Origin: a virus
Taxonomy: Duplodnaviria > Heunggongvirae > Uroviricota > Caudoviricetes
Virus record (IMG/VR): IMGVR_UViG_3300042360_000330
Reading direction: 5' to 3' (one strand)
DNA: 64,000 nucleotides
Part shown: positions 1 through 26,409 of the stretch, piece by piece
Position numbering within the stretch: the first letter of the stretch is position 1
Layout of the letters: the number at the start of each line of letters is the position of its first letter
Position numbers and translations under genes: made by a program
Notes under the pieces: model-generated
The model's input: only the letters and a program-made list of their open reading frames with translations
Told to the model about the DNA's origin: nothing
Databases searched by the model: none

Positions 1-1
1 A

Positions 2-682
2 ACTGATGATAAGTCTTATTTTGAGAGTTTAGATAGAAAAAATTTAATAGTAAATGAATTAAAAGATTTTTATGATGAATTTCCTTCATTAGAAAAAAAT
101 GAATATTTTTTAGAAAGTATTGATGAACAAGAATATGCACAAAAGTTTATTCAAAACAATTATTTATTTTCATTTTCTACATATAGATTTAATGTATTAC
201 AAGCTATTAGATTAGATATAAAAAATGTAGCTATGCTTTGTGCTGATACTATTATTACATTTAATGGTGTTAATGAAAATTTATTTCAAAACACTAACAG
301 TATGTATAATGCCATATCATGGTGGTACAGTAATGCAGATGCTCCTTTAAGTGTTGGTTACATGGATATGAAACCTATAATTAGATTTTTAGAAAATAAG
401 TACAATAAACCTATAGAAAGAAATTTATTAGTTTTAGATGAAGCAGCACGTTTATATATTCCTAATACTTTAGATGATTTAAAAAAATTATTTAATGTAT
501 GGAATGAAGTAATTGAATTTCTATACGAAAATAAAAAAATAAACCAATATAAAGGTTCTTATGTTATTCATGATGAATATATTTTAGCTCCTATATATAA
601 TTTATTAGATATTAATTTAAAAAATATATCAAATTTATTTGATGTAAAGCATAATAAAGAAGTTGAACGATTTTGGATGTAA
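2..682 (+). CDS. hypothetical protein, N-terminus truncated by window edge (open frame continues to position 2)
   Basis: Frame of ORF 233..682 stays open back to window start; no recognisable motif. Confidence 0.5.
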   Translation, partial: TDDKSYFESLDRKNLIVNELKDFYDEFPSLEKNEYFLESIDEQEYAQKFIQNNYLFSFSTYRFNVLQAIRLDIKNVAMLCADTIITFNGVNENLFQNTNSMYNAISWWYSNADAPLSVGYMDMKPIIRFLENKYNKPIERNLLVLDEAARLYIPNTLDDLKKLFNVWNEVIEFLYENKKINQYKGSYVIHDEYILAPIYNLLDINLKNISNLFDVKHNKEVERFWM

Positions 683-695
683 ATAAAAACTAAAT

Positions 696-2381
696 ATGGC
701 AAATATAAGCATACATGGCTCACATAATGGAGCTATAGTAATTGAAGATAAAGGAGAAATTTTATGTGTTGTAGAATTTGAAAGATTTTTAAATTACAAA
801 AATGTAGGATTAGCTCAATATAAAACTCCTAGATATATAATGATATGTCTAGAAGAAATTATGAAATGGGTTGAAAAAGAATACGGAATAACTGAATTTG
901 AAAACTGCTATTTTTCATCTACAGACTTTGTAGGTGAAAACTTTATAGGAGAACACAGAATATATCAAACAATACACAAAATTAAAGCCAAAAATTACAT
1001 TCATGGGTTGCACCATGAATCACATGCTTGTGGTGTATTTTATCAGTCGCCATACGACGAAGCTTTAATATTTTCATTTGATGGTGGTGGTGATGATGGA
1101 GAATTTAATGTATATCATGCTACACGAGGAGAAGAAATCAAATTATTAGAACAAGTTAAAAATCCTGTAATGGGTGATCCTAATCTATACTATAATTTAG
1201 GATTTGCTTATATGGTCTTTGGTCAATACTTAAAAGACATCCAAATGGAAGGATTAGGAGATGGAAATTTAGTATGGCCGGGTAAAATAATGGGACTAGT
1301 TTCATATGGAAATTACAAACCAGAATGGTTAGAAGCATTTATAGAATTCTTTAAAAGCGACCCAGATGGAGGAAATGATGATTATGTTGAAAAAATAAAT
1401 AAATTAGGAGAAAAAATTGAAGTAACATTCGATATTAATAATAGATTAGAAGGACAATTAGCATATGATGTTGCTGCAACTGCTCAACGTGCTTTTGAAG
1501 ATTGCTTTTTAGAAGTAGCAAAACCATACTTTGAACAATACCCTGAACTACCAGTTTGTATAACAGGAGGATGTGCTTTAAATATTATTCTAAATACACG
1601 TGTTAGAGAAGAATTTAATAAAGAAGTATTTGTAGGACCTAATCCTAATGATTGTGGTATTGCAACTGGTTTAATGCTAAAACATTTAAAACCAGAAACG
1701 GCTTGTGATTTAACATATAAAGGATTACCTATTCTAGACCAAAATTTAATAGCTCAATTACTACCAGAATACCCGAATGTTAAAAAATTAATGGAACAAG
1801 ATGAAGAATTTCATCCTTACGAACAACATGATCCTTCTATATTAGTAGAAGATTTGATCAATGGAAAAATTATAGGGGTAGTAAAAAATCAATCAGAACA
1901 TGGTCCTAGAGCATTGGGTAATAGAAGTATAATATGTAACCCTTCTATTGCTGAAATGAAAGATATATTGAACGATAAAGTAAAACATAGAGAATGGTAT
2001 CGTCCATTTGCTCCTGTAGTACGTCAAGAAGATGTTTCAAAATATTTTGAATTTGAAGGCGAATCAAGATGGATGTCCTTTTGTCCTAAAGTAAGACTAG
2101 AATGGAGAGATAGATTAGCAGCAATCACACATGTTGATGGTACTGCTAGAGTTCAAACCGTAACTAGAGAACAAAATGAATTTCTATATGACTTGTTAAC
2201 GGAATTTGAAAAGAAAACAGGAATAGGAGTGTTATTAAATACATCGTTTAATGTAAATGGTAAACCTATTTTATCAACATACAAAGATGCATTTATTATA
2301 TATAACAATACAGAATTAGATTGTCTCTTATTAGAAGATTACTACATCAGAAAAGAAATATTTCCTTCAAAACAAAAATAA
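696..2381 (+). CDS. carbamoyltransferase (NodU/CmcH family)
   Basis: 561 aa; N-terminal ASKHA-like region, HHESHA...FDGGGDDGEF motif typical of NodU/CmcH O-carbamoyltransferases. Confidence 0.75.
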   Translation: MANISIHGSHNGAIVIEDKGEILCVVEFERFLNYKNVGLAQYKTPRYIMICLEEIMKWVEKEYGITEFENCYFSSTDFVGENFIGEHRIYQTIHKIKAKNYIHGLHHESHACGVFYQSPYDEALIFSFDGGGDDGEFNVYHATRGEEIKLLEQVKNPVMGDPNLYYNLGFAYMVFGQYLKDIQMEGLGDGNLVWPGKIMGLVSYGNYKPEWLEAFIEFFKSDPDGGNDDYVEKINKLGEKIEVTFDINNRLEGQLAYDVAATAQRAFEDCFLEVAKPYFEQYPELPVCITGGCALNIILNTRVREEFNKEVFVGPNPNDCGIATGLMLKHLKPETACDLTYKGLPILDQNLIAQLLPEYPNVKKLMEQDEEFHPYEQHDPSILVEDLINGKIIGVVKNQSEHGPRALGNRSIICNPSIAEMKDILNDKVKHREWYRPFAPVVRQEDVSKYFEFEGESRWMSFCPKVRLEWRDRLAAITHVDGTARVQTVTREQNEFLYDLLTEFEKKTGIGVLLNTSFNVNGKPILSTYKDAFIIYNNTELDCLLLEDYYIRKEIFPSKQK

Positions 2382-2383
2382 TT

Positions 2384-4732
2384 ATGAATTTATTACAAGA
2401 AATTAGAGGTTTTAATAATACTAAGGTAGATCCTACTATTATTAATGATGAACAATTAGATCAAATAGTAATACATGCCTTAGATGTTATAGAAAGAGGT
2501 ATAGAAGGAGATATAGTAGAATTTGGATGTTATGTAGGTGAATCAAGTAAATACTTAAGAAAAACTTTAGATGAAACTAATTCAAATAAAGATCTTTATG
2601 TATATGATTCTTTTGAAGGATTACCTCCGTTATCTAAACATGAAGAAGGAATGGGTTGGAGACCTGGTACCTTAAATACTACAGAAGATGTTCTAATTAA
2701 AAACTTTAGAGACAATGGATTAAAACCTCCATACACGTGTAAAGGATGGTTTAAAGATGTCCCAGATTATAGAATCCCAGATAAAATATGTTTTGCCTTT
2801 TTAGATGGTGATTTTTATGATTCTATTTATGATAGTTTAACAAAAATTTACGATAAAGTTCAAGAAGGAGGATATATTTTATTCCATGATTATGAAAGAA
2901 ATGATCTTCCTGGTGTAAGAGCAGCCATAGAAGATTTCTTAAGAGAAAGAGGAGAAGAATATAACGTTTACACAGCTTGTGAGCAAGTAGGAGTTTTAAA
3001 AAAGAATAAAGCACAAAAAATACATATTCCACAAGTAGATGATACTAATAAAGAATTAACAGTAGTTACAGGATTATGGGATATTAATCGTGCAGGTAGA
3101 AGTTTCGATCATTATATTGAAAACTTTAATAAATTTTTAGAAATGCCTGTAAATATGTTTATTTACGTTCCTAAAGATTTAGAACATTTAGTTTGGGAAA
3201 AACGTAGTAAATCAAACACCCATGTTAGAGTGTTTGAATTAGAAGATATTAAAAATAATTTTTACCAACCATTTTGGGACAAAACTCAAGAAATCAGAAC
3301 AAGCCCAGAGTGGCTTAACCAAGCAGGATGGTTAGCAGGTTCACCACAAGCATCAAATGAATGGTATAATCCAATTGTACAATCAAAAATGTTTATGCTC
3401 CACGATGCTAAAATATTAAATGTATTTGATACAGACTATTTCATATGGTTAGATGCTGGTATAACAAATACAGTATATGAAAAATACTTTACAGATAATA
3501 AATGTTTAGATAAGTTAATACCACATTTAAATACATTCTTATTTTTAAGCTATCCATATCAAGCAAACAGTGAAATCCATGGATTTGATTTTAAAGCTAT
3601 AAACAAATACGCTCGTGAAGAAGTAAAATATGTTTGTAGAGGTGGATTATTTGGTGGACATAAAGATTTCTTATCTCAAGCTAATGGAACTTATTATCAT
3701 TTACTTCAAGATACATTAACATCTGGGTATATGGGAACTGAAGAATCATTATTTAGTGTAATGGCTCATTTAGAACCACACATCTATAGAAGATATGCTT
3801 TAGATGAAAATGGTCTTATAGTTAAATTTATTCAAGATTTAATGGAAGATAATGTAAGATTAGAAAATAATGGTGGTCGAGCTCATGTATTACCAAAAGG
3901 AGTATACAATCCAAATACCTCTAAAACATCATTATACATGTTAACATTCAACTTCCCAGAACAAATAGAACACACTGTTGCTACTTGGGAAGCTAATTCA
4001 CCTGATTGGATGTCTAAACCTAGAAAAATATTATTAGATAATTCAACTGATGAAAGTGCTAGAATAAAAAATCAAGAATTAGCTGTAAAATATAATTTTG
4101 AATACATTCCTATGGAAGGAAATGTAGGTATAAATGGTGGTAGATTATTTGCTGCTAAACATTTCCAAGAATCAGATAGTGATTATTATTTCTTCTTTGA
4201 AGATGATATGGGATTACATTCAAACTCAGAACAAGGATTCTGTAGAAATGGATTTAAAAGTTACATTCCTGATCTATATAGAAAAGTACATGATATAATG
4301 GCTAAAGAGGATTTTGATTTCTTAAAATTATCATTTACTGAAGTTTATATGGATAACAACATTCAAGTATCATGGTATAATGTGCCTCAATCTGTTAGAA
4401 CATACATGTGGCCTGATTATGATCAATTACCAATCTCAGGATTAGACCCATATGCACCTAGAACTAAATTTGATAAAATAGATGTCCATAATGAATTATC
4501 TTACATCTCAGGAGAAATATATTATGCTAACTGGCCTATGATTGTAAGTAAAAAAGGTAATCAAAAAATGTTCTTAGATACTCAATGGGAACATCCATTT
4601 GAACAAACTTGGATGTCATACATGTTCCAAGAAACAGTTAAAGGAAATATAAAACCAGCAGTATTATTAGCGTCACCTGTACTTCATAATAGAATAGTAT
4701 ATTATAAACCTGAAGAAAGACGTGAGAATTAA
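2384..4732 (+). CDS. multidomain sugar-modifying enzyme: N-terminal TylF/MycF-like SAM-dependent O-methyltransferase plus C-terminal GT2-like glycosyltransferase
   Basis: Start shifted to internal ATG 2384 after upstream stop at 2381. Motifs VEFGCYVGESS, YDSFEGLPP, DGDFYDSI (macrocin O-MT family). C-terminal region has a GT-A like FEDDMG (DxD). Confidence 0.6.
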   Translation: MNLLQEIRGFNNTKVDPTIINDEQLDQIVIHALDVIERGIEGDIVEFGCYVGESSKYLRKTLDETNSNKDLYVYDSFEGLPPLSKHEEGMGWRPGTLNTTEDVLIKNFRDNGLKPPYTCKGWFKDVPDYRIPDKICFAFLDGDFYDSIYDSLTKIYDKVQEGGYILFHDYERNDLPGVRAAIEDFLRERGEEYNVYTACEQVGVLKKNKAQKIHIPQVDDTNKELTVVTGLWDINRAGRSFDHYIENFNKFLEMPVNMFIYVPKDLEHLVWEKRSKSNTHVRVFELEDIKNNFYQPFWDKTQEIRTSPEWLNQAGWLAGSPQASNEWYNPIVQSKMFMLHDAKILNVFDTDYFIWLDAGITNTVYEKYFTDNKCLDKLIPHLNTFLFLSYPYQANSEIHGFDFKAINKYAREEVKYVCRGGLFGGHKDFLSQANGTYYHLLQDTLTSGYMGTEESLFSVMAHLEPHIYRRYALDENGLIVKFIQDLMEDNVRLENNGGRAHVLPKGVYNPNTSKTSLYMLTFNFPEQIEHTVATWEANSPDWMSKPRKILLDNSTDESARIKNQELAVKYNFEYIPMEGNVGINGGRLFAAKHFQESDSDYYFFFEDDMGLHSNSEQGFCRNGFKSYIPDLYRKVHDIMAKEDFDFLKLSFTEVYMDNNIQVSWYNVPQSVRTYMWPDYDQLPISGLDPYAPRTKFDKIDVHNELSYISGEIYYANWPMIVSKKGNQKMFLDTQWEHPFEQTWMSYMFQETVKGNIKPAVLLASPVLHNRIVYYKPEERREN

Positions 4733-4767
4733 ATAAAGGGTTATTATATTTACAAAAAATTAAAGTT

Positions 4768-7353
4768 ATGTACCAAAGTATCTATTATAATAGAACTACT
4801 AAACAATATCATGTGCGCGACGATAAAAAGGGATGGGTTACCTTCCCTTATCGTGCTACATGTTATGTACCCGATGATGGAGGTGAATATAAAACATTAG
4901 ACGGACAACGTGTATCTCCTACACTACAGTATGGATATAAAGATCCAAATGTATTTGAAAGTGATGTTGACAAATATACTAGAGTATTAGTTGATGCTTA
5001 TTACACTTCTGATGATGTTCCTTCTTATCAAAATATAGTTTATTTAGATATTGAGTGTGAAATAGCAGGAGCACTTACTCAAGATAGTGTTCGTGATCCT
5101 CAAGGTAAAATAACTTCTATTGCTGTATATGATAATACTACTAAAGAGTACTACTGTTATGTATTAGATGAAGCTAAAAAATTACCATCATCAAAAACAG
5201 ATAACAAACATATTATATCTTGTACATCTGAAAAAGACTTATTATCCCAATTTCTTGATAAATGGGAAGAATTAGACCCAACAATTATATCTGGTTGGAA
5301 CAGCGAATTCTTCGATATACCGTACTTATATCATAGAATTGCCAAGGTATTGGGAAAAACAGAGGCCGTGCGTTTATCGCCGTTAAAACAAGTAGATAGC
5401 AACGAATTTTTAGGGGTTAAAACAACAACTATAGCTGGTTTAAATCATCTAGATTATATGTTACTATTTAAAAAATATGTAACAACCCAAGAACCATCTT
5501 ATGCTTTAGGAAATATAGGTACTAAATATGTTAACTTAGGAAAAATAGAATACTTAGGTTCACTTGATAAATTATTTCAAGAAGATGTTCAAAAATTCAT
5601 TGATTATAACATTCGGGATGTTGAAATTATAATTGAATTAGAGAAAAAACTTAAATTCATTGATTTAACAGTTACAGTATGTCATTTATGTCATACCCCT
5701 TATAATCAGGTGTATATGTCAACTATGCTGAATGAAGGCGCTATTTTAACTTATTTAAAACGTAAAGGGATAGTTTCACCAAATAAACCTACAACTTATA
5801 ATCCTTCATTAAGAGATATTAAAGAAGAATATGCTGGTGGTTATTTAAAAGATCCTGTACCTGGTTTGTATGAATGGGTTATTGACTTAGATTTCACATC
5901 ATTATATCCTTCTATTATTAGATCCCTAAACATGGGTATTGAAACCTTAGTAGGTCGTATTGTAAATAGAGACAAATATGACAACCAGTGGTCACTAAAA
6001 GAATTAAAACTATTAAACCCAGAAATGGATCTTACTATTGAAAAAGTAAACGAAAATAAAAGCATTACTCGATCAACTGTAAAAGTAAGTAAAATAATAA
6101 AGTTTATCGAACAAGGAAACTACATAATATCTGCACCTGGTGTCATTTTTAGAAAAGATAAAGAAAGTGTAGTATGTGAAATATTAACTGACTGGTTTAA
6201 TAAGAGAAGTGAGTATAAAGCATTAATGAAAGATGCATTCAAAGTTAAAAAAGATCCAATATTAGGGGATTTCTATAATAGACGCCAACATGCCTATAAA
6301 ATTAAATTAAATGATGTTTATGGATGTTATGCTATTAATGGTTGGAGATACACGGATGGTCATAAATTTATATCAAAAGCTATTACACTTACAGGACAAC
6401 GCTTAATTCAAGAATCTATTAAACATGTTAATAAATGGATGAACAACCAAATTAATACAGAAGGTATAGATTACATTGTAACATCCGATACAGATTCACT
6501 TTTTATTCAAGTTAAAGATTTACTTAGACAAAGATATCCTGATCTAGATTTAAACAATAGAGAAGAAACAGTTAAGTATGTTTTAGAAATTGCTACTGAA
6601 GTACAACAAATTGCAAATGATAATTTACATGGTTTAGTAGTTGAATTATTTAATCTACATGATAGAGAACATTATTTTGATCTAAAACAAGAAGTTGTAC
6701 TTGAACGAGGATACTTTGCAGGTAAAAGACGTTATGCCCAATTCATTGTAAATAAAGAAGGTGTTCCTGTAGAAGAACTAGATATTAAGGGATTAGATTT
6801 AATGAAGTCAAACTTCCCACCGTATTTTAGAAACTTTAGTAAGCAACTTCTTCAAGATATAATGTTTGGAAAACCTAAACCAGACATAGATAAACAGATA
6901 TTAGCATTTAGAGAAAGTATAGACACTGTAGATTGGAGATTATTATTAAAACCTACAGGTTTAAAAAACATAGGAGGGTATATTGCCTCTCCTCCCAAAG
7001 CAGGTGAAATATTCTCTAAATTAGGATTAAAATGCCCAATTAATACCAAATCAGCTATATATTATAATGATATATTACGTTTTAAAAAACTAGATAAACA
7101 ATACAATACATTCCAGATAGGGGATAAAATGTTTATAGCTTATTTAAAAGATAATCCTTATAATATAGAAGTTATAGGGTTTAATGGGTATGATGATCCT
7201 CCATTTATTACAGAATTTATAGAAAAATACCTAGACAAAACACAGTTATTCGATTCTGTGTTAAGGAATAAATTAGAAAGTTTATATGATGATTTAAAAT
7301 GGGGTAAACCTATCTTTAATAGCAATATAAATAAATTCTTTAAATTTGGATAA
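4768..7353 (+). CDS. DNA polymerase, family B
   Basis: 861 aa; exo I YLDIECE, exo II FFDIPYL, pol motif A DLDFTSLYPSII, motif C VTSDTDSLF. Confidence 0.9.
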   Translation: MYQSIYYNRTTKQYHVRDDKKGWVTFPYRATCYVPDDGGEYKTLDGQRVSPTLQYGYKDPNVFESDVDKYTRVLVDAYYTSDDVPSYQNIVYLDIECEIAGALTQDSVRDPQGKITSIAVYDNTTKEYYCYVLDEAKKLPSSKTDNKHIISCTSEKDLLSQFLDKWEELDPTIISGWNSEFFDIPYLYHRIAKVLGKTEAVRLSPLKQVDSNEFLGVKTTTIAGLNHLDYMLLFKKYVTTQEPSYALGNIGTKYVNLGKIEYLGSLDKLFQEDVQKFIDYNIRDVEIIIELEKKLKFIDLTVTVCHLCHTPYNQVYMSTMLNEGAILTYLKRKGIVSPNKPTTYNPSLRDIKEEYAGGYLKDPVPGLYEWVIDLDFTSLYPSIIRSLNMGIETLVGRIVNRDKYDNQWSLKELKLLNPEMDLTIEKVNENKSITRSTVKVSKIIKFIEQGNYIISAPGVIFRKDKESVVCEILTDWFNKRSEYKALMKDAFKVKKDPILGDFYNRRQHAYKIKLNDVYGCYAINGWRYTDGHKFISKAITLTGQRLIQESIKHVNKWMNNQINTEGIDYIVTSDTDSLFIQVKDLLRQRYPDLDLNNREETVKYVLEIATEVQQIANDNLHGLVVELFNLHDREHYFDLKQEVVLERGYFAGKRRYAQFIVNKEGVPVEELDIKGLDLMKSNFPPYFRNFSKQLLQDIMFGKPKPDIDKQILAFRESIDTVDWRLLLKPTGLKNIGGYIASPPKAGEIFSKLGLKCPINTKSAIYYNDILRFKKLDKQYNTFQIGDKMFIAYLKDNPYNIEVIGFNGYDDPPFITEFIEKYLDKTQLFDSVLRNKLESLYDDLKWGKPIFNSNINKFFKFG

Positions 7354-7380
7354 CCAAAAAATAATTATTATATTTAAAAT

Positions 7381-8118: not shown

Positions 8119-8204
8119 TATATTTATAATAAACAAAAGACTTTAGGGCAATACAGTTTTTAAATTATTAACGCGATCTTAGGACGCACAAAACGTAAAT
8201 CAAA

Positions 8205-8606: not shown

Positions 8607-8658
8607 AAATATTGCCCTAAAGTTAGGTTTTTCCAAGAATATTTTATATATTACAGTT

Positions 8659-8838: not shown

Positions 8839-8863
8839 TATTAATATTTAAACCAAGAAGTTT

Positions 8864-9154: not shown

Positions 9155-9162
9155 AATTAAAT

Positions 9163-13252: not shown

Positions 13253-13286
13253 GTTTACATATATTTATATCCAAATATATAATATT

Positions 13287-21318: not shown

Positions 21319-22183
21319 TACATTAGCAACGTTACATATAATGTGGTATGAAAGTCAAATGATTAATGAAACTCTTGACTCTATACAACAAGCAATATCG
21401 AATGCTCAACATCCTGTACAACTGATTCTATGTTTGAATTCACAAACATATATCGAGAAACCAGATGAAGGTTTTATCCCAGAACAAATGTTTGATGTGT
21501 TTTTAAATCATCCTGTATTAAAAGATGCAATTATACTTAGAAAAACAGATAATGACCCTTTTTACAATATTGGAGATTGGACCAGAGAAATTTATGGACC
21601 CGGATATGAAGCTAAGTATACTGTTTGGTTAGAAAGTGATTGTTTAGTACCTGAAGATTATTTCTTTCTTTTAGAAAATATTAATCTAGATCATCCTCAT
21701 CTTATATCGTTAGCTAATAGAAAAATGTGGGATTCTACTTGGGATGAAGTAGAACACCCTTACATACAACAAATTCCAAGAACAGGACCTCCTGAAGAAC
21801 CTCAAAGAAACACTCCTGAACCTTTTGGAGTAGGACATTATATAAATCAAAAAGATTTAAATAAATTTAACAAACAGTATGAACCTGTTTTAATTAAATT
21901 ATCTCAACCTAAAGTAGATGGCGCTATGGCTGCTGTATCTAATAATTTTCCTTATCCGTTTATAACAGAAGGTGTTCATTTGGGTGGTCATGATTATTAC
22001 ATGGAATTGTTTATGAAAAAGAATAATATTCCTCAATACCATATGCCTACTAGATTAAAAGGACACAATTGTTCACATCCTAAAAAACGATTAGGAACAA
22101 GTACACCAAGAGGAGGAGAAGTATATAAAAAATACGAAAAACAATGTAAAGAACTTATTCATAAATTAATATTTAATACTTAA
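21308..22183 (+). CDS. hypothetical protein
   Basis: 291 aa ORF within the glycan cluster. Confidence 0.5.
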   Translation: MKYNTLATLHIMWYESQMINETLDSIQQAISNAQHPVQLILCLNSQTYIEKPDEGFIPEQMFDVFLNHPVLKDAIILRKTDNDPFYNIGDWTREIYGPGYEAKYTVWLESDCLVPEDYFFLLENINLDHPHLISLANRKMWDSTWDEVEHPYIQQIPRTGPPEEPQRNTPEPFGVGHYINQKDLNKFNKQYEPVLIKLSQPKVDGAMAAVSNNFPYPFITEGVHLGGHDYYMELFMKKNNIPQYHMPTRLKGHNCSHPKKRLGTSTPRGGEVYKKYEKQCKELIHKLIFNT

Positions 22184-22185
22184 AA

Positions 22186-23112
22186 ATGGACAAAAATTCA
22201 AAAATACTAATAACCGGATCTACAGGAATGGTAGGATCCGCTGTTGTTAGAATGTTAAAAGAATTAGGATATAATAACTTACTAACACCTCCTAGAAAAG
22301 AAGTAGATCTAGTAAATCCTCAAGATGTACAAGCATACTTCGCATACCATAAACCAGAATATGTTTTCTTAATAGCTGCTAAAGTAGGAGGAATACATGC
22401 TAATATGACTTACAGAGCTGATTTTATTTTTGATAATTTAATGATGCAAAGTAATACTATAAATGCTTGTAAAGAAAATAATGTTAAAAAAGTATTATTT
22501 GTTAGTAGTGGTTGTGTTTATCCAAAATATGCTGAAAATCCTATTAGTGAAGATGCAATGTTAACAGGATTATTAGAACCTTCTAATGAACATTACTCAA
22601 TAGCTAAAATAGCAGGTATAAAAATGTGTGAAGCTTATAATATGCAATATGGTTTAGATTATGCTGTTGTAATACCAAATAACATTTATGGTCCTGGAGA
22701 CAATTATCACCCTGAAAATTCTCATGTTATGGCTTCTTTAATTAGAAAATTTCATGAAGCTAAGCAAAACGGAACTGATGTTGAGATATGGGGAAGTGGA
22801 AAACAAATGAGAGAGTTTGTCTATGTAGAAGATGTTGCAAAAGCATGTGTCTCTTTAATAGATAGTTCGTACATTGGGGCTTACAATTGCAGTAGCGAAC
22901 ATGAAATTACTATAAAAGATTTAGCTGAATTAGTAGCTGAAATTTTAGAATTTAAAGGTAATATTGTGTATAATACTGATAAGCCTGAAGGACACCCAAG
23001 AAAAGGATTCTCATGTGCTAAATTAAAACAAACAGGATGGGATGCCTCAACATCATTGAGAGAGGGTATTCAATTAGCATATGAATGGTATAAACAAAAT
23101 TTAAATAAATAA
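22186..23112 (+). CDS. fcl: GDP-L-fucose synthase (GDP-4-keto-6-deoxy-D-mannose 3,5-epimerase/4-reductase) or the homologous colitose synthase ColC
   Basis: 308 aa; KILITGSTGMVGSAV, AAKVGGI, YSIAKIAG (YxxxK), NSHV... colinear with E. coli Fcl. Confidence 0.85.
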   Translation: MDKNSKILITGSTGMVGSAVVRMLKELGYNNLLTPPRKEVDLVNPQDVQAYFAYHKPEYVFLIAAKVGGIHANMTYRADFIFDNLMMQSNTINACKENNVKKVLFVSSGCVYPKYAENPISEDAMLTGLLEPSNEHYSIAKIAGIKMCEAYNMQYGLDYAVVIPNNIYGPGDNYHPENSHVMASLIRKFHEAKQNGTDVEIWGSGKQMREFVYVEDVAKACVSLIDSSYIGAYNCSSEHEITIKDLAELVAEILEFKGNIVYNTDKPEGHPRKGFSCAKLKQTGWDASTSLREGIQLAYEWYKQNLNK

Positions 23113-23113
23113 T

Positions 23114-23989
23114 ATGATAACTTACGCATTATCAACATTTAACACATTAAACTATTTAAAACTAGCAGTACACTCGGCAAGAGAAAATGGATACTATAAA
23201 GATGCTCCATTTGTAATACATGCTGAAAATTGTACTGACGGTACTGATGAATGGTTAGAAGAAAATAAAGAACGATATAATTTAAAAATTTACATTGAAA
23301 AAAATGAAACACCTCGAGGAATAGGTGGTGGAATGAATTTCTGTGCTAATAAAGTTAAAACTAAATATATTGGATTTTTATCTTCAGATTTTTACATGGC
23401 TAAAAATTGGGATAAAGAATTAGTAGATATATGTGAAAATAACCCACAAGACAAAATATGGTCATTTAGCTACAGAGTAGAACCAGATATATTTAATGAT
23501 CCTAACAGTAGACCAGGAGTAATAAAAGTTCCAGTTGATGCATTTGGTGAATTTCATCATAACTTTAATGGTGATTTCTTTACAGAATGGAGTAATGAAT
23601 TCGCTGCTTCAAATGATATAATATTTGATGTTCCTCAAGGAGTAAGTGGTGTCATTAAAAAAGAAGATTGGGATTATATTGGTGGAAACGACGATAGATT
23701 TGCACCAATGTATTGGGAAGATGCCGATATCTTTATTAGAATGTTGAATGAAGGATTTAAATTTAAATTAACTAGCAAATCAGTATTATATCATTTTGCT
23801 TCTAGAACAAGTAGATTTCCTGATGACAATTTAAATCAAAGACCTGCTCATTTAGCAGCATATGAACAAAGAAGTTTACAACGTTTTATAGAAAAATACG
23901 GAAAATTACCATCACATGGACCTTTAGGACAATACTTTCCTATGCCTATCGCAGATGGTTCACCAAACAGAATAAATCAAAATAACTAA
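23114..23989 (+). CDS. putative glycosyltransferase (GT-A)
   Basis: 291 aa; acidic WEDADIF motif; position in cluster. Confidence 0.4.
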   Translation: MITYALSTFNTLNYLKLAVHSARENGYYKDAPFVIHAENCTDGTDEWLEENKERYNLKIYIEKNETPRGIGGGMNFCANKVKTKYIGFLSSDFYMAKNWDKELVDICENNPQDKIWSFSYRVEPDIFNDPNSRPGVIKVPVDAFGEFHHNFNGDFFTEWSNEFAASNDIIFDVPQGVSGVIKKEDWDYIGGNDDRFAPMYWEDADIFIRMLNEGFKFKLTSKSVLYHFASRTSRFPDDNLNQRPAHLAAYEQRSLQRFIEKYGKLPSHGPLGQYFPMPIADGSPNRINQNN

Positions 23990-23990
23990 T

Positions 23991-24956
23991 ATGAGTAAAG
24001 TTGCATTAATTACAGGCATAAATGGAATGGATGGAAGTCATTTAGCCGACTTTCTATTAAAAAAAGGATACACAGTATATGGTTTAGAAAGACGTAGCTC
24101 TGGAGAAAACAGAAATAATGTTGCCCATATTGAAAATGAAATTAACTTTATTAAAGGTGATTTAACAGATCAAAATTCACTATTAAGAGCATTAAAAGAA
24201 TCTCAACCTGATGAAGTATATAATCTAGCCGCTCAATCATTTGTTGGTGAAAGTTGGAATACACCTGAACAAACAAGCGATGTAACCGGATTAGGAGTAT
24301 TAAGAATGTTAGAAGCAATTCGCGAATATGGTTCGGACAAAATTAAATTCTACCAAGCATCATCTTCAGAAATGTTTGGACGTATGGTAGAAAATCCTGC
24401 TAGAGAAACTACTCCATTTTACCCACGTTCACCTTATGGTGTTGCTAAATTATATGGACATTGGATAACTAAAAATTACAGAGAGTCTTACGACATGTTT
24501 GCTTGTTCTGGAATATTATTCAATCATGAATCCGAAAGACGTGGTTTAGAATTTGTAACTAGAAAAATAACTAATGGTGTTGCTAAAATTCATTTAGGAT
24601 TAGCAGATCATATATCATTAGGTAACCTAGATGCAAAACGTGATTGGGGTTATGCTCCTGATTATGTTGAGGCAATGTGGCTAATGTTACAACAAGATAA
24701 TCCTGAAGATTATGTTATAGCAACTGGTGACACATGGTCTATTAGAGATTTTTTAGATGAAGCATTCTTAGTAGTAGGAATAGCAGATTGGGAACCATAC
24801 ATTAAAATTGATCCTAAATTTATGAGACCTGCTGAAGTAGATATATTAATTGGAGATTGTACTAAAGCAAAAACAGAATTAAATTGGAATCCAAAAACCA
24901 GTTTTAAAGATATGGTACACATAATGGTTAACAACGATATAAAATTACTTAAATGA
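23991..24956 (+). CDS. gmd: GDP-mannose 4,6-dehydratase
   Basis: 321 aa; MSKVALITGINGMDGSHLADFLL, YNLAAQSFVGESW, FYQASSSEMFG, SPYGVAKLYGHWIT; near-colinear with E. coli Gmd. Confidence 0.9.
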   Translation: MSKVALITGINGMDGSHLADFLLKKGYTVYGLERRSSGENRNNVAHIENEINFIKGDLTDQNSLLRALKESQPDEVYNLAAQSFVGESWNTPEQTSDVTGLGVLRMLEAIREYGSDKIKFYQASSSEMFGRMVENPARETTPFYPRSPYGVAKLYGHWITKNYRESYDMFACSGILFNHESERRGLEFVTRKITNGVAKIHLGLADHISLGNLDAKRDWGYAPDYVEAMWLMLQQDNPEDYVIATGDTWSIRDFLDEAFLVVGIADWEPYIKIDPKFMRPAEVDILIGDCTKAKTELNWNPKTSFKDMVHIMVNNDIKLLK

Positions 24957-25993
24957 TATCATTAATTATACCAGCAACAACATCTAATCAACATTACACT
25001 GATAATTTAGTTCGTAATATTAGAGATCTTTATCCTAATGAAGATGAAGTTGAAATTATAGTTGAAGTAAACGACAATGTTACTCTAGGAGTAAATCATA
25101 ATAATGCTGTTGAAAAAGCTAATGGTGAAAAAATCATTATCCTTCATAATGACATGGTGTTATCTAAAGGTTTCATTGAAACTATGGATAAACACATCGT
25201 TAAAGGCAGAATAACGACGTATACTCGCATAGAACCCCCTATATACACAGATATATACCCTGGAAAAGTCATCGCAGATTTTGGCTCAGATTTAGAAACA
25301 TTTAATAAAGAAAAATTTAATACCTTTAGTTTAGAAGAAAGCTTAGTTGATGGTGGTTCACAACTATTCTTTGGTTGTATGAAAGAAGATTACATTGGTA
25401 TTGATGGATATACTTTTAAAATGTTCTGTGAGGATGATGATTTTCATTTACGTTGTAAATTAGCAGGATTTGAACAAAAAGTATCATCAGCTTATGCTTA
25501 TCATTTTGTAAGTAAGACATCCAGAACTACAAAAGATTATCAACAAATTGAAAAGAATTCAAATCGTAACTTTATTAGAAAATGGGGTTCTAGAAACCCA
25601 GTTGCAAAATATAATATTGCTTATGTCGTTCATAACTGTCAATTAACAGCATTAGAAACATTAGAATTATTCTGTGATAGAATATATGTAACTGAAAATT
25701 TCAATGTTGGTAGAATGTGGGATTATGTTGAATTAGAACAAGAAAATACAACATTTGATTTATCAAAACGAGTATTAACTATAAAAAATAATGACCCAAT
25801 ATTAGAAAATGATATTGTAGTTGAATTCGATTTATTAAAGTTCTCTCCTGAATCATTTAATATTCTTCAACAATTACCTCAAATACTTAAAGAAAGTGGT
25901 GAACCGGGTACATTTGAATTAGATATATTTAAGATTACTATTGCTTCAATGCCTGAATACCAAAATGATTTAATATTTATATCAAAACAATAA
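24953..25993 (+). CDS. glycosyltransferase family 2
   Basis: 346 aa; LIIPATT N-terminus, HNDMVL, DxD-like CEDDDFHLRC. Confidence 0.55.
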   Translation: MISLIIPATTSNQHYTDNLVRNIRDLYPNEDEVEIIVEVNDNVTLGVNHNNAVEKANGEKIIILHNDMVLSKGFIETMDKHIVKGRITTYTRIEPPIYTDIYPGKVIADFGSDLETFNKEKFNTFSLEESLVDGGSQLFFGCMKEDYIGIDGYTFKMFCEDDDFHLRCKLAGFEQKVSSAYAYHFVSKTSRTTKDYQQIEKNSNRNFIRKWGSRNPVAKYNIAYVVHNCQLTALETLELFCDRIYVTENFNVGRMWDYVELEQENTTFDLSKRVLTIKNNDPILENDIVVEFDLLKFSPESFNILQQLPQILKESGEPGTFELDIFKITIASMPEYQNDLIFISKQ

Positions 25994-25995
25994 TA

Positions 25996-26409
25996 ATGGA
26001 AAGTATTAGTATATTAGACGAATTAAAATTATTCTTAGAAGCAGAAGGAGAAGATGCAATTACACCTGAAGAGGCAGCTATTGAATCAGATATGGAAAAT
26101 CCTAAAACACCTAAATTAAAATTAGATGTTAATCCAAATCCAACTAAAAAAGGAATAAAAGTACAATTTATATTACCTAAAGGATATAGTGTATCTCAAA
26201 AAGAAGAATTAACTCAAAAACTAAAAACAAAACTTAACAATGGTCTAGAACCTCATATGTTAAGTGTAGATGTTGATTTAGATGTTCCCTATGAAAACGT
26301 AATAGGATTCTTAATTAGATTAAGTAACATTAAAATGTTAATCAAATCAGCATTGGAAGGAGGAACTCAAGCACCCAGCACAAACGACACATTACCAGAA
26401 GAAGTATAA
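25996..26409 (+). CDS. hypothetical acidic protein
   Basis: 137 aa ORF. Confidence 0.5.
   Translation: MESISILDELKLFLEAEGEDAITPEEAAIESDMENPKTPKLKLDVNPNPTKKGIKVQFILPKGYSVSQKEELTQKLKTKLNNGLEPHMLSVDVDLDVPYENVIGFLIRLSNIKMLIKSALEGGTQAPSTNDTLPEEV

What the first reader, a model, noticed from the sequence alone, without database searches (positions are those of the whole stretch)
1..26000. Phage-encoded nucleotide-sugar and glycan biosynthesis cluster split by a replication module
About 25 kb of this viral genome encodes a near-complete polysaccharide pathway:
- carbamoyltransferase
- TylF-like and FkbM-like methyltransferases
- two or more GT4 and four or five GT2 glycosyltransferases
- Gmd
- an Fcl-type synthase
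- a DegT-family 3-dehydratase
- an RmlD-like reductase

That is enough to make a carbamoylated, methylated deoxy-/dideoxy-hexose-containing glycan from GDP-mannose. The cluster is interrupted at 4768-13490 by polB, clamp, Hsp20, GroES/EL, clamp loader and a Cas4-like nuclease. That layout suggests the glycan genes are core genome rather than a recent cargo island.

Possible roles:
- virion glycosylation
- capsule-like decoration
- remodelling of the host surface (superinfection exclusion)
Basis: partly seen in the sequence, partly recalled or inferred. Interest (0 to 1): 0.7.

Follow-up and report, generated by a model that had tools for sequence, protein, structure and literature searches.

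The report
Swappable sugar-gene cassette in a phage
An uncultured large phage, related to a Flavobacterium phage, carries four conserved glycan genes followed by a swappable cassette of sugar-making genes, all lacking membrane export proteins, so it probably decorates a phage component rather than building a bacterial-style polysaccharide.

Summary
The gene calls are confirmed. Windows 1-4732 and 13508-25993 encode a carbamoyltransferase, sugar O-methyltransferases, two GT4 and about seven GT-A glycosyltransferase domains, Gmd, an Fcl/ColC-type synthase, an E1/ColD-type 3-dehydratase and a short RmlD-like reductase. A T4-like replication/chaperone module separates the two stretches.

The "core, not cargo" reading is only partly right.
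- In 150 related loci, only GT4-GT4-Zn-ribbon-GT2 (13508-17301) is core. It is also present in Flavobacterium phage immuto and Microcystis phage Mel-JY01.
- 17298-25993 is a hypervariable cassette: 16 gene orders in 17 complete islands, 0-8.7 kb.
- The closest relative (93% nucleotide identity) has no match across 17310-21306.
- The upstream block occurs only in a subclade and continues beyond the window start with two GT60 genes.

It is not a near-complete polysaccharide pathway. No initiating phosphoglycosyl transferase, flippase, polymerase or exporter was found, and only one of 462 island ORFs (61 aa) has two or more transmembrane-like segments.

Best reading (about 0.5): cytoplasmic glycosylation of a phage component, most likely virion proteins, with strain-specific outer sugars. 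Host-surface remodelling and DNA glycosylation remain possible. This is a new variant of a known kind, of moderate interest.

The parts
1..682 (+). 3' part (226 codons) of a 269-aa ORF that begins 127 nt before the window. Function unknown. Belongs to the upstream glycan block (island A).
   Evidence: The same genome, L152, is 100% identical to the window over 12,381 nt. There the gene is called at 9178-9987, next to the carbamoyltransferase. No Pfam family above cut-off.
696..2381 (+). NodU/CmcH-type O-carbamoyltransferase (561 aa).
   Evidence: Carbam_trans_C 215 bits and Carbam_trans_N 88 bits. NodU equivalog 156 bits, far below its cut-off of 1000. The allele is only 70% identical at nucleotide level in the closest relative.
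2384..4732 (+). Three-domain enzyme (782 aa): TylF-type sugar O-methyltransferase, HtrL/YibB-like GT-A, and a C-terminal GT2-like GT-A.
   Evidence: Pfam TylF 97 bits and HtrL_YibB 45 bits. AF2 mean pLDDT 84. Foldseek matches SpnH, NovP and MycF for the N-terminal domain. It matches the two-GT-A enzymes K4CP, heparosan synthase 2 and LH3, and TarP, for the rest. PF00535 is on record for the homologues at 59-61% identity. Invariant EDD at residues 606-608.
4768..13490 (+). Conserved replication/chaperone module, not part of the glycan system. It holds PolB 4768-7353, clamp 7381-8118, Hsp20 8205-8606, GroES 8864-9154, GroEL 9163-10794, clamp loader 10769-11680 and 11902-12354, PD-(D/E)XK nuclease 12311-13252, and a small ORF 13212-13490.
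   Evidence: Most genes (not Hsp20) are present in 47-70 of 70 relatives found through PolB.
13508..14950 (+). Core GT4-like (GT-B) glycosyltransferase 1 (480 aa).
   Evidence: Glycos_transf_1 43 bits. Found in 80 of 80 loci. 59% identical in Flavobacterium phage immuto and 40% in Microcystis phage Mel-JY01. Invariant E314...E322 EX7E motif. Best solved relative is chlorovirus B736L, E 1.2e-14.
14947..16248 (+). Core GT4-like glycosyltransferase 2 (433 aa).
   Evidence: Weak Glycos_transf_1 match, 24 bits. 118 relatives in IMG/VR. 59% identical in immuto and 45% in Mel-JY01. EX7E motif kept. The only PDB hit is B736L.
16250..16681 (+). Core 143-aa protein with an N-terminal CxxC...CxxC zinc ribbon. 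Role unknown.
   Evidence: Found in 64 of 80 loci, always between GT4-2 and the core GT2. Only weak Lar-type zinc-ribbon matches.
16684..17301 (+). Core GT2 (GT-A) glycosyltransferase (205 aa). It marks the left edge of the variable cassette.
   Evidence: PF00535 35 bits. Found in 65 of 80 loci. DAD motif at residue 88. Nucleotide identity to the closest relatives stops at 17303-17309.
17298..17900 (+). FkbM-family methyltransferase (variable cassette).
   Evidence: PF05050 48 bits. Present in only one related locus, L090.
17884..18579 (+). Probable GT-A glycosyltransferase (variable cassette).
   Evidence: PF00535 is below its cut-off, 17.7 bits. DDD motif at residue 87. Found in 22 loci.
18590..19876 (+). 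E1/RfbH-type, PMP-dependent NDP-4-keto-6-deoxyhexose 3-dehydratase.
   Evidence: DegT 242 bits. RfbH 355 bits against a cut-off of 423. 249 bits to Yersinia E1 and 171 bits to ColD. His sits where aminotransferases have Lys (S-H-H against A-H-H in E1 and A-K-H in the H220K mutant). Four Cys align with four Cys of E1, which from memory are its [2Fe-2S] ligands.
19878..20609 (+). Short RmlD-like NAD(P)H 4-ketoreductase (243 aa).
   Evidence: RmlD_sub_bind 63 bits. YSYYK motif at residue 127. Homologues are 220-236 aa, so it is not truncated. It follows the dehydratase directly in L085, L086, L091 and L117; in L104 one ORF lies between them.
20584..21318 (+). DUF707/GT2-like probable glycosyltransferase.
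   Evidence: DUF707 25.1 bits against a cut-off of 24.1. PF00535 is below its cut-off.
21308..22183 (+). GT-A fold glycosyltransferase of a family with no profile.
   Evidence: No Pfam, NCBIfam or PHROG hit. 348 homologues, none given a function by any source. AF2 pLDDT 94.7. 118 PDB matches at E <= 0.001, and the 50 listed are almost all GT-A glycosyltransferases. Top hits are Mimivirus R699, ColGalT1 and LARGE1. Viral GT-A hits as well. Invariant E109-S110-D111.
22186..23112 (+). GDP-4-keto-6-deoxymannose 3,5-epimerase/4-reductase (Fcl or ColC type).
   Evidence: NF047922 393 bits against a cut-off of 500. 308 bits to E. coli Fcl. The sequence shows SSGC, YSIAK and NSHV motifs. Replaced by another gene in L092.
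23114..23989 (+). GT2 glycosyltransferase.
   Evidence: PF00535 51 bits.
23991..24956 (+). GDP-mannose 4,6-dehydratase (Gmd).
   Evidence: TIGR01472 444 bits, above its cut-off of 415. GINGMDG and YGVAK motifs.
24953..25993 (+). GT2-like glycosyltransferase at the right edge of the cassette.
   Evidence: PF00535 24.0 bits against a cut-off of 23.3. A GT2 of this cluster closes 8 of the 17 complete islands.
25996..27787 (+). Conserved right flank, not glycan genes: ORFs 25996-26409, 26412-26762, 26719-27144 and an HNH/HTH protein 27137-27787. The tRNA array follows.
   Evidence: Found after the island in relatives, and directly after the core GT2 in the island-less L122 and L123. HNH/HTH PHROG hits.

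Best explanation
This is a phage-borne glycosylation system made only of soluble enzymes, built like an O-antigen locus without its membrane half.

Organisation
- A conserved block (GT4, GT4, a zinc-ribbon protein, GT2) is inferred to lay down an inner glycan on a phage-specified acceptor in the cytoplasm.
- A cassette directly downstream, exchanged by recombination at gene boundaries, supplies strain-specific activated sugars and the transferases and methyltransferases that add and trim them.

Proposed chemistry in this genome (inferred, not shown)
1. Gmd converts host GDP-mannose into GDP-4-keto-6-deoxymannose.
2. The Fcl-type enzyme turns that into GDP-L-fucose.
3. In parallel, the E1-type 3-dehydratase removes the 3-OH. 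Either the RmlD-like reductase or the Fcl/ColC-type enzyme then finishes a GDP-3,6-dideoxyhexose.
4. A second, subclade-specific block upstream of polB adds more steps. It holds two GT60 genes just outside the window, a carbamoyltransferase and an MT-GT-GT fusion.

Acceptor
The most likely acceptor is one or more virion proteins. That would give related phages different surface "glyco-types".

What is shown and what is inferred
- Shown: the families, the architecture, the variability and the absence of membrane components.
- Inferred: the acceptor, the order of steps and the nucleotide carrier used by the dehydratase.

Confidence is about 0.9 for the descriptive part and about 0.5 for the statement with a virion-protein acceptor.
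For: Families and folds

Core against variable
- GT4-1 and GT4-2 are in 80 of 80 loci. The zinc-ribbon protein and the core GT2 are in 64-65 of 80.
- The same order occurs in cultured Flavobacterium phage immuto.
- Microcystis phage Mel-JY01 has it too, without an identifiable zinc-ribbon ORF.
- The block is therefore conserved across host phyla, which favours a phage-intrinsic acceptor.

Variability of the island
- 62 loci, 462 ORFs and 138 protein clusters.
- 17 complete islands span 0 to 8.7 kb and show 16 gene orders.
- A relative at 93% nucleotide identity has no match across 17310-21306. Another has the Fcl gene replaced. Breakpoints fall at gene boundaries.
- Alternative cassettes carry amino-sugar genes (DegT, PglD-like), nonulosonic-acid genes (NeuB, CMP-transferase, GT29) and uronic-acid genes.

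No membrane machinery
- None of the window ORFs in 1-34 kb has a transmembrane-like segment.
- Only 1 of 462 island ORFs (61 aa) has two or more.

Hints that the acceptor is a protein
- Two GT60 genes (PF11397, 234 and 191 bits in the 92%-PolB-identity relative L003) lie directly upstream in this genome. From my own knowledge, the known activities of GT60 are polypeptide GlcNAc transfer.
- Three relatives' island clusters match PF01973 (MptE-like). From my own knowledge this domain occurs in Maf flagellin glycosyltransferases, whose activity is described in PMC11339370.
- The best solved relative of both core GT4s is chlorovirus B736L.
- The MT-GT-GT fusion parallels PBCV-1 A064R, which builds the capsid glycan (PMC9614988).

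Gene packing
Genes from 13508 to 26409 are separated by -26 to +10 nt.
Against: - No acceptor was identified, and the window holds no structural genes.
- The GT genes sit beside replication genes. In the mycobacteriophages where virion glycosylation was shown, phage glycosyltransferase genes sit near the capsid and tail genes (my recollection, not checked here).
- Many bacterial O-antigen glycosyltransferases are also soluble and work on lipid carriers made by other genes. Absence of membrane proteins therefore does not exclude use of host machinery.
- GT4-like enzymes also glycosylate phage DNA (PMC13326640).
- B736L itself has no proven acceptor (PMC9614988).
- The E1-type dehydratase keeps four Cys that align with what I recall as the E1 Fe-S ligands, but no E3-type reductase is encoded. 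Its homologues in L085 and L091 occur without a recognisable Gmd in the sequence recovered. The GDP-linked dideoxy branch is therefore the weakest step.
Confidence: 0.5

Rival explanations
1. Host-surface remodelling. The phage enzymes act at the inner face of the membrane on host lipid-linked O-antigen, capsule or Bacteroidota O-glycan intermediates. Host flippases and ligases then export the altered glycan. This would change receptors and block superinfection by competing phages.
For: - This is the reading given to glycosyltransferase-rich hypervariable islands of pelagimyophages and cyanomyophages (PMC7029224).
- The sugar repertoire is typical of bacterial surface polysaccharides: 6-deoxy and 3,6-dideoxy hexoses, nonulosonic acids and N-acetylated amino sugars.
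- Diversifying cassette exchange resembles O-antigen loci.
- Soluble glycosyltransferases are usual in O-antigen assembly (my own knowledge).
Against: - No initiating transferase, GtrA/GtrB-type protein, Wzx, Wzy, ligase or exporter in the window, and no multi-pass membrane protein of normal size in any of 62 related islands.
- From my own knowledge, classical seroconverting phages all encode membrane proteins for this job.
- The core block is conserved between phages of Cyanobacteria and of Bacteroidota. Their envelope glycans and carriers differ.
- GT60 relatives and proteins with the Maf-associated PF01973 domain point to polypeptide acceptors.
Confidence: 0.25
2. DNA hypermodification. The core GT4 pair, which lies directly after the replication genes and a nuclease, glycosylates a modified base in phage DNA. 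The variable cassette diversifies the DNA glycan to escape restriction and modification-dependent nucleases.
For: - Position next to PolB, clamp, clamp loader and nuclease.
- DNA arabinosyltransferases of RB69 and DLP3 are GT4-like and hit the same structural neighbours, BshA and sucrose-phosphate synthase 6kih (PMC13326640). The GT4-1 profile also hits these.
- Weak match of GT4-2 to the "GT4-conflict" family.
- The genome carries 7-deazaguanine genes just upstream, so its DNA is probably modified.
- Diversifying selection is expected for anti-restriction traits.
Against: - No route to a hydroxylated pyrimidine was seen. The only ThyA homologue has canonical L143, D169 and N177, the residues that PMC13326640 uses to tell thymidylate synthases from 5hmdCMP and 5hodCMP synthases.
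- No cytosine methyltransferase or TET pair was found among the families seen, though the scan was incomplete.
- In the papers read here, DNA glycans are one to three simple sugars. Methylated or carbamoylated deoxyhexoses and nonulosonic acids on DNA have no precedent known to me.
- GT60 and the Maf-associated PF01973 domain point to protein acceptors.
Confidence: 0.08
3. Glycosylation of a non-virion target, such as a host or phage cytoplasmic protein or a soluble or lipid metabolite. Alternatively, the cassette genes are auxiliary metabolic cargo with no common product.
For: - The acceptor is unknown.
- Chlorovirus B736L, the closest solved relative, may not act on the capsid protein (PMC9614988).
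- Some cassette genes are only weakly assigned.
Against: - Tight packing of the genes, -26 to +10 nt apart.
- Co-transfer of sugar-synthesis genes with matching transferases.
- A conserved core in 80 of 80 loci argues for one coordinated product.
- The high diversity suggests an exposed, selected structure.
Confidence: 0.12

Closest known systems
Autonomous capsid glycosylation of chloroviruses (PBCV-1 and NY-2A: Gmd A118R, a GDP-fucose synthase (GMER), A064R, A546L/B736L)
   Same: - Virus-encoded Gmd plus a fucose synthase.
- Soluble glycosyltransferases.
- A three-domain GT/GT/methyltransferase fusion, and O-methylated deoxyhexoses.
- Both core GT4s have B736L as their best solved relative (PMC9614988).
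   Different: - This is a tailed phage of bacteria, not a giant virus of algae.
- The domain order is MT-GT-GT rather than GT-GT-MT, and the domains are not orthologous.
- No glycan or acceptor is known here.
- The cassette turns over between close relatives.
Clade-specific glycan gene clusters of Megavirinae (mimivirus fibril glycans)
   Same: Clustered viral genes make bacterial-type rare sugars, and the content differs between lineages (PMC9614988). ORF 21308's top structural hit is Mimivirus R699.
   Different: Here the variation is between near-identical genomes, at one fixed locus anchored by conserved glycosyltransferases.
Hypervariable glycosyltransferase/LPS-gene islands of pelagimyophages and cyanomyophages
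   Same: Aquatic T4-related myophages with non-syntenic islands rich in glycosyltransferases and deoxy-sugar genes (PMC7029224).
   Different: - Those islands lie in the structural region with the tail fibres and are read as host O-chain modification.
- Here the island follows the replication module.
- It is anchored by a conserved GT4-GT4-GT2 block.
- It belongs to a different lineage, with PolB only 29% identical to cyanomyophage gp43.
Bacterial O-antigen and capsule gene clusters
   Same: - Nucleotide-sugar genes, glycosyltransferases and tailoring enzymes are packed in one operon-like unit.
- Cassettes are exchanged at gene boundaries.
- The same Gmd, Fcl and RfbH/ColD chemistry is used.
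   Different: All the membrane steps are missing: initiating phosphoglycosyl transferase, Wzx/Wzy or Wzm/Wzt, and ligase.
Mycobacteriophage virion glycosylation (Freeman et al. 2023, as summarised in PMC12619734)
   Same: Phage-encoded glycosyltransferases glycosylate the phage's own capsid and tail-tube proteins. The window's GT4-2 is distantly similar (27%) to an annotated glycosyltransferase of Arthrobacter phages, whose function and gene neighbourhood were not examined.
   Different: - From my recollection, those phages carry one to a few glycosyltransferase genes near the structural genes and no sugar-nucleotide pathway.
- Here there are more than a dozen glycan genes next to replication genes.
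Flavobacterium phage vB_FspM_immuto (Immutovirus), the closest cultured relative
   Same: It has the same nuclease-GT4-GT4-small ORF-GT2 order, followed by a cassette of different sugar genes that ends in a GT2. The GT4s are 59% identical.
   Different: - Its cassette differs: aminotransferases, an acetyltransferase and an epimerase.
- It has a family A polymerase where this phage has PolB plus clamp.
- None of the 11 papers returned by a full-text search for immuto, Flavobacterium phage and glycosyltransferase was about this locus, judged from titles and abstracts.

Membership tests
GDP-mannose 4,6-dehydratase (Gmd, TIGR01472) | Whole-protein score above the curated equivalog cut-off | tested here: met
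   443.9 bits against a cut-off of 415.
GDP-mannose 4,6-dehydratase (Gmd, TIGR01472) | SDR nucleotide-binding glycine motif and a catalytic YxxxK | tested here: met
   GINGMDG at residue 9 and YGVAK at residue 149.
GDP-L-fucose synthase (Fcl, NF047922) | Score above the curated cut-off | tested here: not met
   393 bits against a cut-off of 500. It is the best family, and the protein scores 308 bits to E. coli Fcl. The related GDP-L-colitose synthase ColC cannot be told apart with these tools.
GDP-L-fucose synthase (Fcl, NF047922) | Epimerase acid/base pair (Cys109 and His179 of E. coli Fcl, recalled from memory) and YxxxK | tested here: inconclusive
   The sequence contains SSGC, YSIAK and NSHV motifs. 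No residue-level alignment to E. coli Fcl was printed, so their equivalence to the catalytic residues rests on my recollection of the E. coli sequence.
E1/ColD-type PMP-dependent 3-dehydratases (DegT superfamily) | His replaces the PLP-binding Lys of aminotransferases | tested here: met
   The query reads YPSHH, wild-type E1 reads YPAHH and the H220K mutant reads YPAKH in the printed alignments.
E1/ColD-type PMP-dependent 3-dehydratases (DegT superfamily) | E1 subtype: four Cys ligands of a [2Fe-2S] cluster (positions recalled from memory: C193, C251, C253, C261) | tested here: met
   Cys is present at all four aligned positions.
E1/ColD-type PMP-dependent 3-dehydratases (DegT superfamily) | E1 subtype: a dedicated E3 (AscD/RfbI) iron-sulfur flavoprotein reductase, and a CDP-glucose pathway (RfbF, RfbG) | tested here: not met
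   No such families among the ORFs of 1-27.8 kb. The only 4,6-dehydratase present is Gmd.
NodU/CmcH carbamoyltransferases | Both Pfam carbamoyltransferase domains above cut-off | tested here: met
   88 and 215 bits. This is not a NodU equivalog: 156 bits against 1000.
GT4 (retaining GT-B) glycosyltransferases | C-terminal Glycos_transf_1 domain with the EX7E motif | tested here: met
   - GT4-1: 43 bits, above the cut-off.
- GT4-2: 24 bits, just below the cut-off of 26.4.
- E314/E322 are invariant in GT4-1. In GT4-2, E310 is invariant and E302 is at least 90% conserved.
Wzx/Wzy- or ABC-dependent O-antigen/capsule gene cluster | Initiating phosphoglycosyl transferase, flippase/polymerase or ABC exporter encoded in the cluster | tested here: not met
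   No such Pfam family. No transmembrane-like segments in the window ORFs of 1-34 kb. Only 1 of 462 ORFs (61 aa) in 62 related islands has two or more.
Seroconverting-phage glucosylation (gtrABC type) | Membrane proteins GtrA (flippase), GtrB (bactoprenol glucosyltransferase) and a serotype-specific membrane glycosyltransferase | tested here: not met
   No membrane proteins.
Phage DNA glycosylation (T-even, RB69 or TET-linked types) | An enzyme that makes a hydroxylated or hydroxymethylated pyrimidine: a ThyA homologue with N177D, L143D/E or D169N, or a cytosine methyltransferase plus TET | tested here: not met
   The ThyA homologue 41409-42461 keeps L143, D169 and N177 (criteria from PMC13326640). 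Only 64 kb of a genome of about 150 kb was examined.
Virus-autonomous virion glycosylation (chlorovirus type) | Soluble virus-encoded glycosyltransferases plus virus-encoded sugar-nucleotide enzymes | tested here: met
Virus-autonomous virion glycosylation (chlorovirus type) | Glycan covalently attached to a virion protein | not testable with these tools
   Needs virions, glycoprotein staining and mass spectrometry.
GT60 polypeptide GlcNAc-transferases (PF11397) | Pfam GlcNAc domain above cut-off | tested here: met
   - The scores, 233.7 and 190.5 bits against a cut-off of 21, are for the L003 homologues.
- The two genes of this genome, L152 5691-6968 and 6968-8254, carry precomputed PF11397 hits.
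- They lie just outside the window.
- Acceptor specificity was not tested.

The most novel reading that the evidence does not exclude
The glycan is attached not to protein but to the phage's DNA. The conserved GT4 pair next to the replication genes would glycosylate a modified base; this genome carries 7-deazaguanine genes just upstream. The swappable cassette would diversify a complex DNA glycan containing deoxyhexoses, methyl or carbamoyl groups and, in relatives, nonulosonic acids. Its role would be as an anti-restriction coat. This would be a kind of DNA hypermodification not described so far.

The less exotic but still new reading is my best explanation: tailed phages with O-antigen-like virion "glyco-serotypes". 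I give that about 0.45-0.5 probability, and it would deserve about 0.7 interest.
Probability: 0.07. Interest if true: 0.9.

Novelty: new variant of a known kind. Interest (0 to 1): 0.55.

Why it matters
Phage-encoded glycosyltransferases and sugar genes are known, but their targets are usually guessed.

This system has four unusual properties:
- A fixed locus whose core is shared by cultured phages of Flavobacterium and Microcystis.
- An outer cassette that changes between genomes 93% identical in nucleotide sequence, much as O-antigen loci change between bacterial serotypes.
- No membrane component at all.
- Gene families otherwise typical of eukaryotes and giant viruses (GT60, GT29, GT7).

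If the acceptor is the virion, abundant aquatic phages would have variable glycan coats. These could affect adsorption, grazing, aggregation and recognition by host defences. Giant-virus style "autonomous glycosylation" would then extend to tailed phages of Gram-negative bacteria.

A cultured relative, Flavobacterium phage immuto, makes the question directly testable.

The islands are also a source of uncharacterised soluble glycosyltransferases. One example is the 21308 family, with 348 or more members and no profile.

Tried and rejected
- Megablast of 1-25000 against 50,697 phage records found nothing. Relatives had to be found through proteins.
- A genome-contig scan with the 3-dehydratase was meant to show whether its closest bacterial homologues sit in GDP- or CDP-sugar clusters. 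The word-based search returned only relatives at 20-37% identity, so the test was inconclusive.
- I tried to infer the nucleotide carrier from relatives that share the dehydratase-reductase pair. The adjacent SDR in L091 is a GalE-like epimerase, not a 4,6-dehydratase. This settled nothing.
- Profile searches of the PDB with the C-terminal domain of the 782-aa protein and with ORF 21308 gave nothing. Predicted structures were needed.
- Sigma-70 promoter and terminator scans found fewer promoter-like sites than shuffled sequence, and no informative terminators. From my own knowledge Bacteroidota-type promoters are not covered, so no operon map was drawn.
- I considered that the two core GT4s form a GtfA/GtfB-like pair of enzyme plus inactive chaperone. 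This is rejected as stated, because both keep the EX7E motif and neither hit the GtfA or GtfB families.
- I considered that the 243-aa RmlD-like protein is a truncated pseudogene. This is rejected, because homologues are 220-236 aa and the YxxxK motif is present.
- I considered that the window is bacterial or giant-virus DNA. This is rejected on the T4-type replication genes, the PHROG hits, the cultured phage relatives and contig sizes of 150-190 kb.
- Rfam found only tRNAs.

Full report
**What the window is**

The window has about 30% G+C and nearly all ORFs lie on the + strand. It carries 24 predicted tRNA genes.

The polymerase is a T4 gp43-type PolB. It is 37% identical to that of Microcystis phage Mel-JY01 and about 29% identical to those of cyanomyophages. 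It is followed by a clamp, the clamp-loader subunits, Hsp20, GroES/GroEL and a PD-(D/E)XK nuclease. Downstream lie an RNA ligase, a thymidylate synthase, a DNA ligase and a tRNA nucleotidyltransferase.

Megablast against 50,697 phage records finds nothing. Protein-anchored scans do find relatives: 70 IMG/VR loci through PolB, and 118 through the second GT4, of which 80 were kept. Their contigs reach 150-190 kb.

The closest cultured relative is Flavobacterium phage vB_FspM_immuto, 160 kb, with GT4s 59% identical. Next comes Mel-JY01 at 40-45%. An identical copy of the window's first 12.4 kb sits on a JGI metagenome contig, L152, with no mismatch in 12,381 nt. That contig shows what precedes the window. 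The DNA is therefore that of an uncultured large tailed phage of an Immutovirus-like lineage. A Bacteroidota host is likely but not shown.

**Check of the observation**

The table lists the glycan genes.

| Coordinates | Assignment | Evidence |
|---|---|---|
| 696-2381 | Carbamoyltransferase | 215 + 88 bits |
| 2384-4732 | TylF-type methyltransferase + HtrL/YibB + further domain | |
| 13508-14950, 14947-16248 | Two GT4-like proteins | |
| 16684, 23114, 24953 | GT2, above Pfam cut-off | |
| 17884, 20584 | GT2-like, below cut-off | |
| 17298-17900 | FkbM methyltransferase | |
| 23991-24956 | Gmd | 444 bits, above the TIGR01472 cut-off of 415 |
| 22186-23112 | Fcl-type enzyme | 393 bits against a cut-off of 500; 308 bits to E. 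coli Fcl |
| 19878-20609 | Short RmlD-like reductase | |
| 18590-19876 | DegT-family 3-dehydratase | |

The DegT protein is indeed a 3-dehydratase. In the printed alignments it has His where aminotransferases have the Schiff-base Lys. It reads YPSHH, against YPAHH in Yersinia E1 and YPAKH in the H220K mutant. Four cysteines align with four of E1, which I recall as its [2Fe-2S] ligands. It is closer to E1/RfbH (249 bits) than to ColD (171 bits).

Two predicted structures added to the picture.

- **ORF 21308-22183.** It has no Pfam, NCBIfam or PHROG match, and 348 homologues to which no source gives a function. It folds with pLDDT 94.7 into a GT-A glycosyltransferase. The top hits are Mimivirus R699, collagen galactosyltransferase and LARGE1. 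It has an invariant E-S-D motif.
- **The 782-aa protein.** It is a three-domain enzyme. The N-terminal domain resembles the sugar O-methyltransferases SpnH, NovP and MycF. The remaining 570 residues or so align with two-GT-A enzymes such as chondroitin polymerase K4CP and heparosan synthase 2. Homologues at 59-61% identity have PF00535 on record.

- ORF 233-682 is the 3' part of a 269-aa gene that starts before the window.
- Glycan genes occupy about 17 kb of the window, not 25 kb.
- In this genome the cluster continues upstream of the window. There it holds a 309-aa ORF and two GT60-family genes (PF11397; 234 and 191 bits for the L003 homologues).

**Core or cargo?**

*The core block.* The nuclease, the small ORF 13212, GT4-1 and GT4-2 are found in 70-80 of the 80 loci anchored on GT4-2. 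The zinc-ribbon ORF 16250 and the GT2 16684 are found in 64-65 of them. The same nuclease-GT4-GT4-small ORF-GT2 order occurs in immuto. Mel-JY01 has it as well, without an identifiable zinc-ribbon ORF. These are phages of two different bacterial phyla.

*The variable cassette.* Everything between the core GT2 and the conserved right flank (25996 onward) varies.

- Across 62 loci I counted 462 ORFs in 138 protein clusters.
- The 17 islands seen from end to end span 0 kb (L122, L123) to 8.7 kb (this window, the largest) and show 16 different gene orders.
- The closest genome, L001/L073, is 93% identical to the window over 3047-17309.
  - It has no detectable similarity over 17310-21306. That stretch holds FkbM, a GT-A-like gene, the 3-dehydratase, the reductase and DUF707.
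  - Identity resumes at 92% from 21307.
- In L092 the Fcl gene alone (22207-23104) is also replaced. Breakpoints coincide with gene boundaries.
- Only L003/L090 is collinear throughout.
- Island content decays much faster than the flanks. Mean Jaccard similarity is 0.41 where GT4-2 is 70-85% identical, and 0.12 at 55-70%.

*Other cassettes.* A Pfam census of the 138 cluster representatives, plus targeted scans, shows several kinds:

- amino-sugar genes (DegT aminotransferase, PglD-like acetyltransferase);
- nonulosonic-acid genes (NeuB, CMP-transferase, GT29, PF01973/MptE-like);
- UDP-sugar dehydrogenases;
- many methyltransferases;
- a GT7;
- a RuBisCO-like protein.

*The upstream block.* The block upstream of polB is likewise not core. 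It holds GT60 x2, unknown ORFs, the carbamoyltransferase and the MT-GT-GT fusion. It occurs in 19 of 47 loci with enough upstream sequence. Elsewhere polB follows conserved genes directly. The carbamoyltransferase allele is only 70% identical in the 93% relative. The methyltransferase domain of the fusion protein is swapped among homologues: TylF, FkbM, none, or an extra class I methyltransferase.

Four genes are core. The sugar-synthesis genes are a mobile cassette within the gene pool of this phage lineage. G+C content is uniform (0.27-0.32) over 1-28 kb, including the cassette.

**What is missing**

A Kyte-Doolittle scan finds no transmembrane-like segment in any window ORF of 1-34 kb. Among the 462 island ORFs, only a single 61-aa ORF has two or more such segments.

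Among the ORFs scanned there is no initiating phosphoglycosyl transferase, Wzx/Wzy, ABC exporter, ligase or GtrA/B. There is also no ManB/ManC for GDP-mannose supply. It is therefore not a "near-complete polysaccharide pathway". It is the cytoplasmic half only.

**Most likely mechanism**

Host GDP-mannose is converted by Gmd into GDP-4-keto-6-deoxymannose. Two branches are then proposed.

1. The Fcl-type enzyme gives GDP-L-fucose.
2. The E1-type dehydratase removes the 3-OH. It would draw electrons from an unidentified host reductase, since no E3 is encoded. The RmlD-like reductase, or the Fcl/ColC-type enzyme, then gives a GDP-3,6-dideoxyhexose.

The GDP carrier of the dideoxy branch is inferred only from Gmd being the sole 4,6-dehydratase present. 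An attempt to test this through bacterial gene contexts failed.

Seven to nine GT-A domains and the two GT4s would then assemble the glycan. The methyltransferases and the carbamoyltransferase would tailor it. Genes from 13508 to 26409 are separated by -26 to +10 nt, which suggests one expression unit.

I favour a phage-specified protein acceptor, most likely on the virion, for five reasons.

- The core block is conserved across phages of Bacteroidota and Cyanobacteria, whose envelope glycans differ.
- All components are soluble.
- The only activities I know of in GT60 are polypeptide GlcNAc transfer. Relatives' islands also carry the PF01973 (MptE-like) domain, which from my own knowledge is found in Maf flagellin glycosyltransferases (activity described in PMC11339370).
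- The best solved relative of both core GT4s is chlorovirus B736L, at E 1.2e-14 and 3.1e-5.
- The Gmd + Fcl + GT/GT/MT-fusion set parallels the chlorovirus capsid-glycosylation machinery (PMC9614988).

None of this identifies the acceptor.

**Rivals**

*Host-surface remodelling.* This is the standard reading of glycosyltransferase islands in pelagimyophages (PMC7029224), and it fits the sugar repertoire. It would need host carriers and exporters in hosts as different as Microcystis and Flavobacterium. Unlike every seroconverting phage I know of, this system has no membrane protein.

*DNA glycosylation.* Several points favour it.

- The block lies next to the replication genes.
- DNA arabinosyltransferases are GT4-like (PMC13326640).
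- 7-deazaguanine genes lie just upstream.

Against it, the only ThyA homologue is canonical at L143, D169 and N177 (criteria). No precedent known to me has such complex sugars on DNA.

**Novelty**

Phage glycan genes, variable glycosyltransferase islands and virus-autonomous glycosylation are all known. GenBank already labels immuto's genes as glycosyltransferases.

What I did not find described is the following combination, though my literature searches were few:

- a fixed locus with a core conserved across host phyla;
- an O-antigen-like swappable cassette;
- soluble components only;
- eukaryote-type or giant-virus-type glycosyltransferase families.

I rate this a new variant of a known kind and of moderate interest. 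It becomes testable through the cultured phage immuto.

Noticed in passing
window 28558-32839: Array of 24 ARAGORN tRNA calls, of which 20 pass the Rfam tRNA threshold. ORFs 30277-30783 (matched by HNH endonuclease PHROGs) and 31491-32018 (not scanned individually) are interleaved with them. A 95-nt "tRNA-Ala(agc)" at 29860-29954 is not confirmed by Rfam.
   Followed up: partly
window 8205-10794: Phage-encoded Hsp20, GroES and a full-length GroEL sit inside the replication module. GroES and GroEL are conserved in 60-66 of 70 relatives and in phage immuto. Hsp20 is in only 18 of 70.
   Followed up: partly
L151 (NC_055915.1) 4718-9057 vs window 4768-10794: The cultured relative immuto has a family A DNA polymerase directly before GroES/GroEL, where this phage has PolB plus clamp. 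This is an apparent replacement of the replicative polymerase within a syntenic frame.
   Followed up: no
L152 2748-5328 (same genome, 4-7 kb upstream of the window start); L153 544-1005: Radical-SAM (QueE-like), GTP cyclohydrolase I, PTPS (QueD-like) and PRA-PH/MazG-like genes lie just before the GT60 genes. Immuto has DpdA and QueF. The phage DNA probably carries a 7-deazaguanine modification.
   Followed up: no
window 41409-42461: The thymidylate synthase homologue is 350 aa, against about 264-316 aa for the solved ones. The extra sequence lies between residues about 200 and 236, where the best PDB alignment breaks. The catalytic region is otherwise canonical, keeping L143, D169 and N177.
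   Followed up: partly
L095 13715-14422 and 16382-17563; island cluster representatives in alignment A1: Variable islands of relatives contain families that are mostly eukaryotic: GT29 sialyltransferase-like (3 clusters) and GT7 beta4-galactosyltransferase-like. They also contain NeuB, CMP-sugar synthetases and PF01973 (MptE-like) proteins. One holds a 394-aa RuBisCO-like protein (PF00016, 124 bits) next to a nucleotidyltransferase.
   Followed up: partly
window 2384-3050 and homologues P0121-P0240: The N-terminal methyltransferase domain of the MT-GT-GT protein is exchanged among homologues (TylF, FkbM, none, or an extra class I methyltransferase), while the two GT domains stay at 60-95% identity. 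The 93% relative has no nucleotide match over 2345-3046.
   Followed up: partly
window 34055-35179, 48433-49167, 49821-50930: RNA ligase, tRNA nucleotidyltransferase (CCA-adding type) and ATP-dependent DNA ligase. Together with the tRNA array this looks like a tRNA repair and maintenance set.
   Followed up: no
window 50900-58000: This stretch has a higher G+C content (0.33-0.38 over 52-58 kb) and a strong GC skew (0.27-0.29 over 50-54 kb). Only short ORFs are present, and Rfam finds no family there. Its content is unexplained.
   Followed up: no
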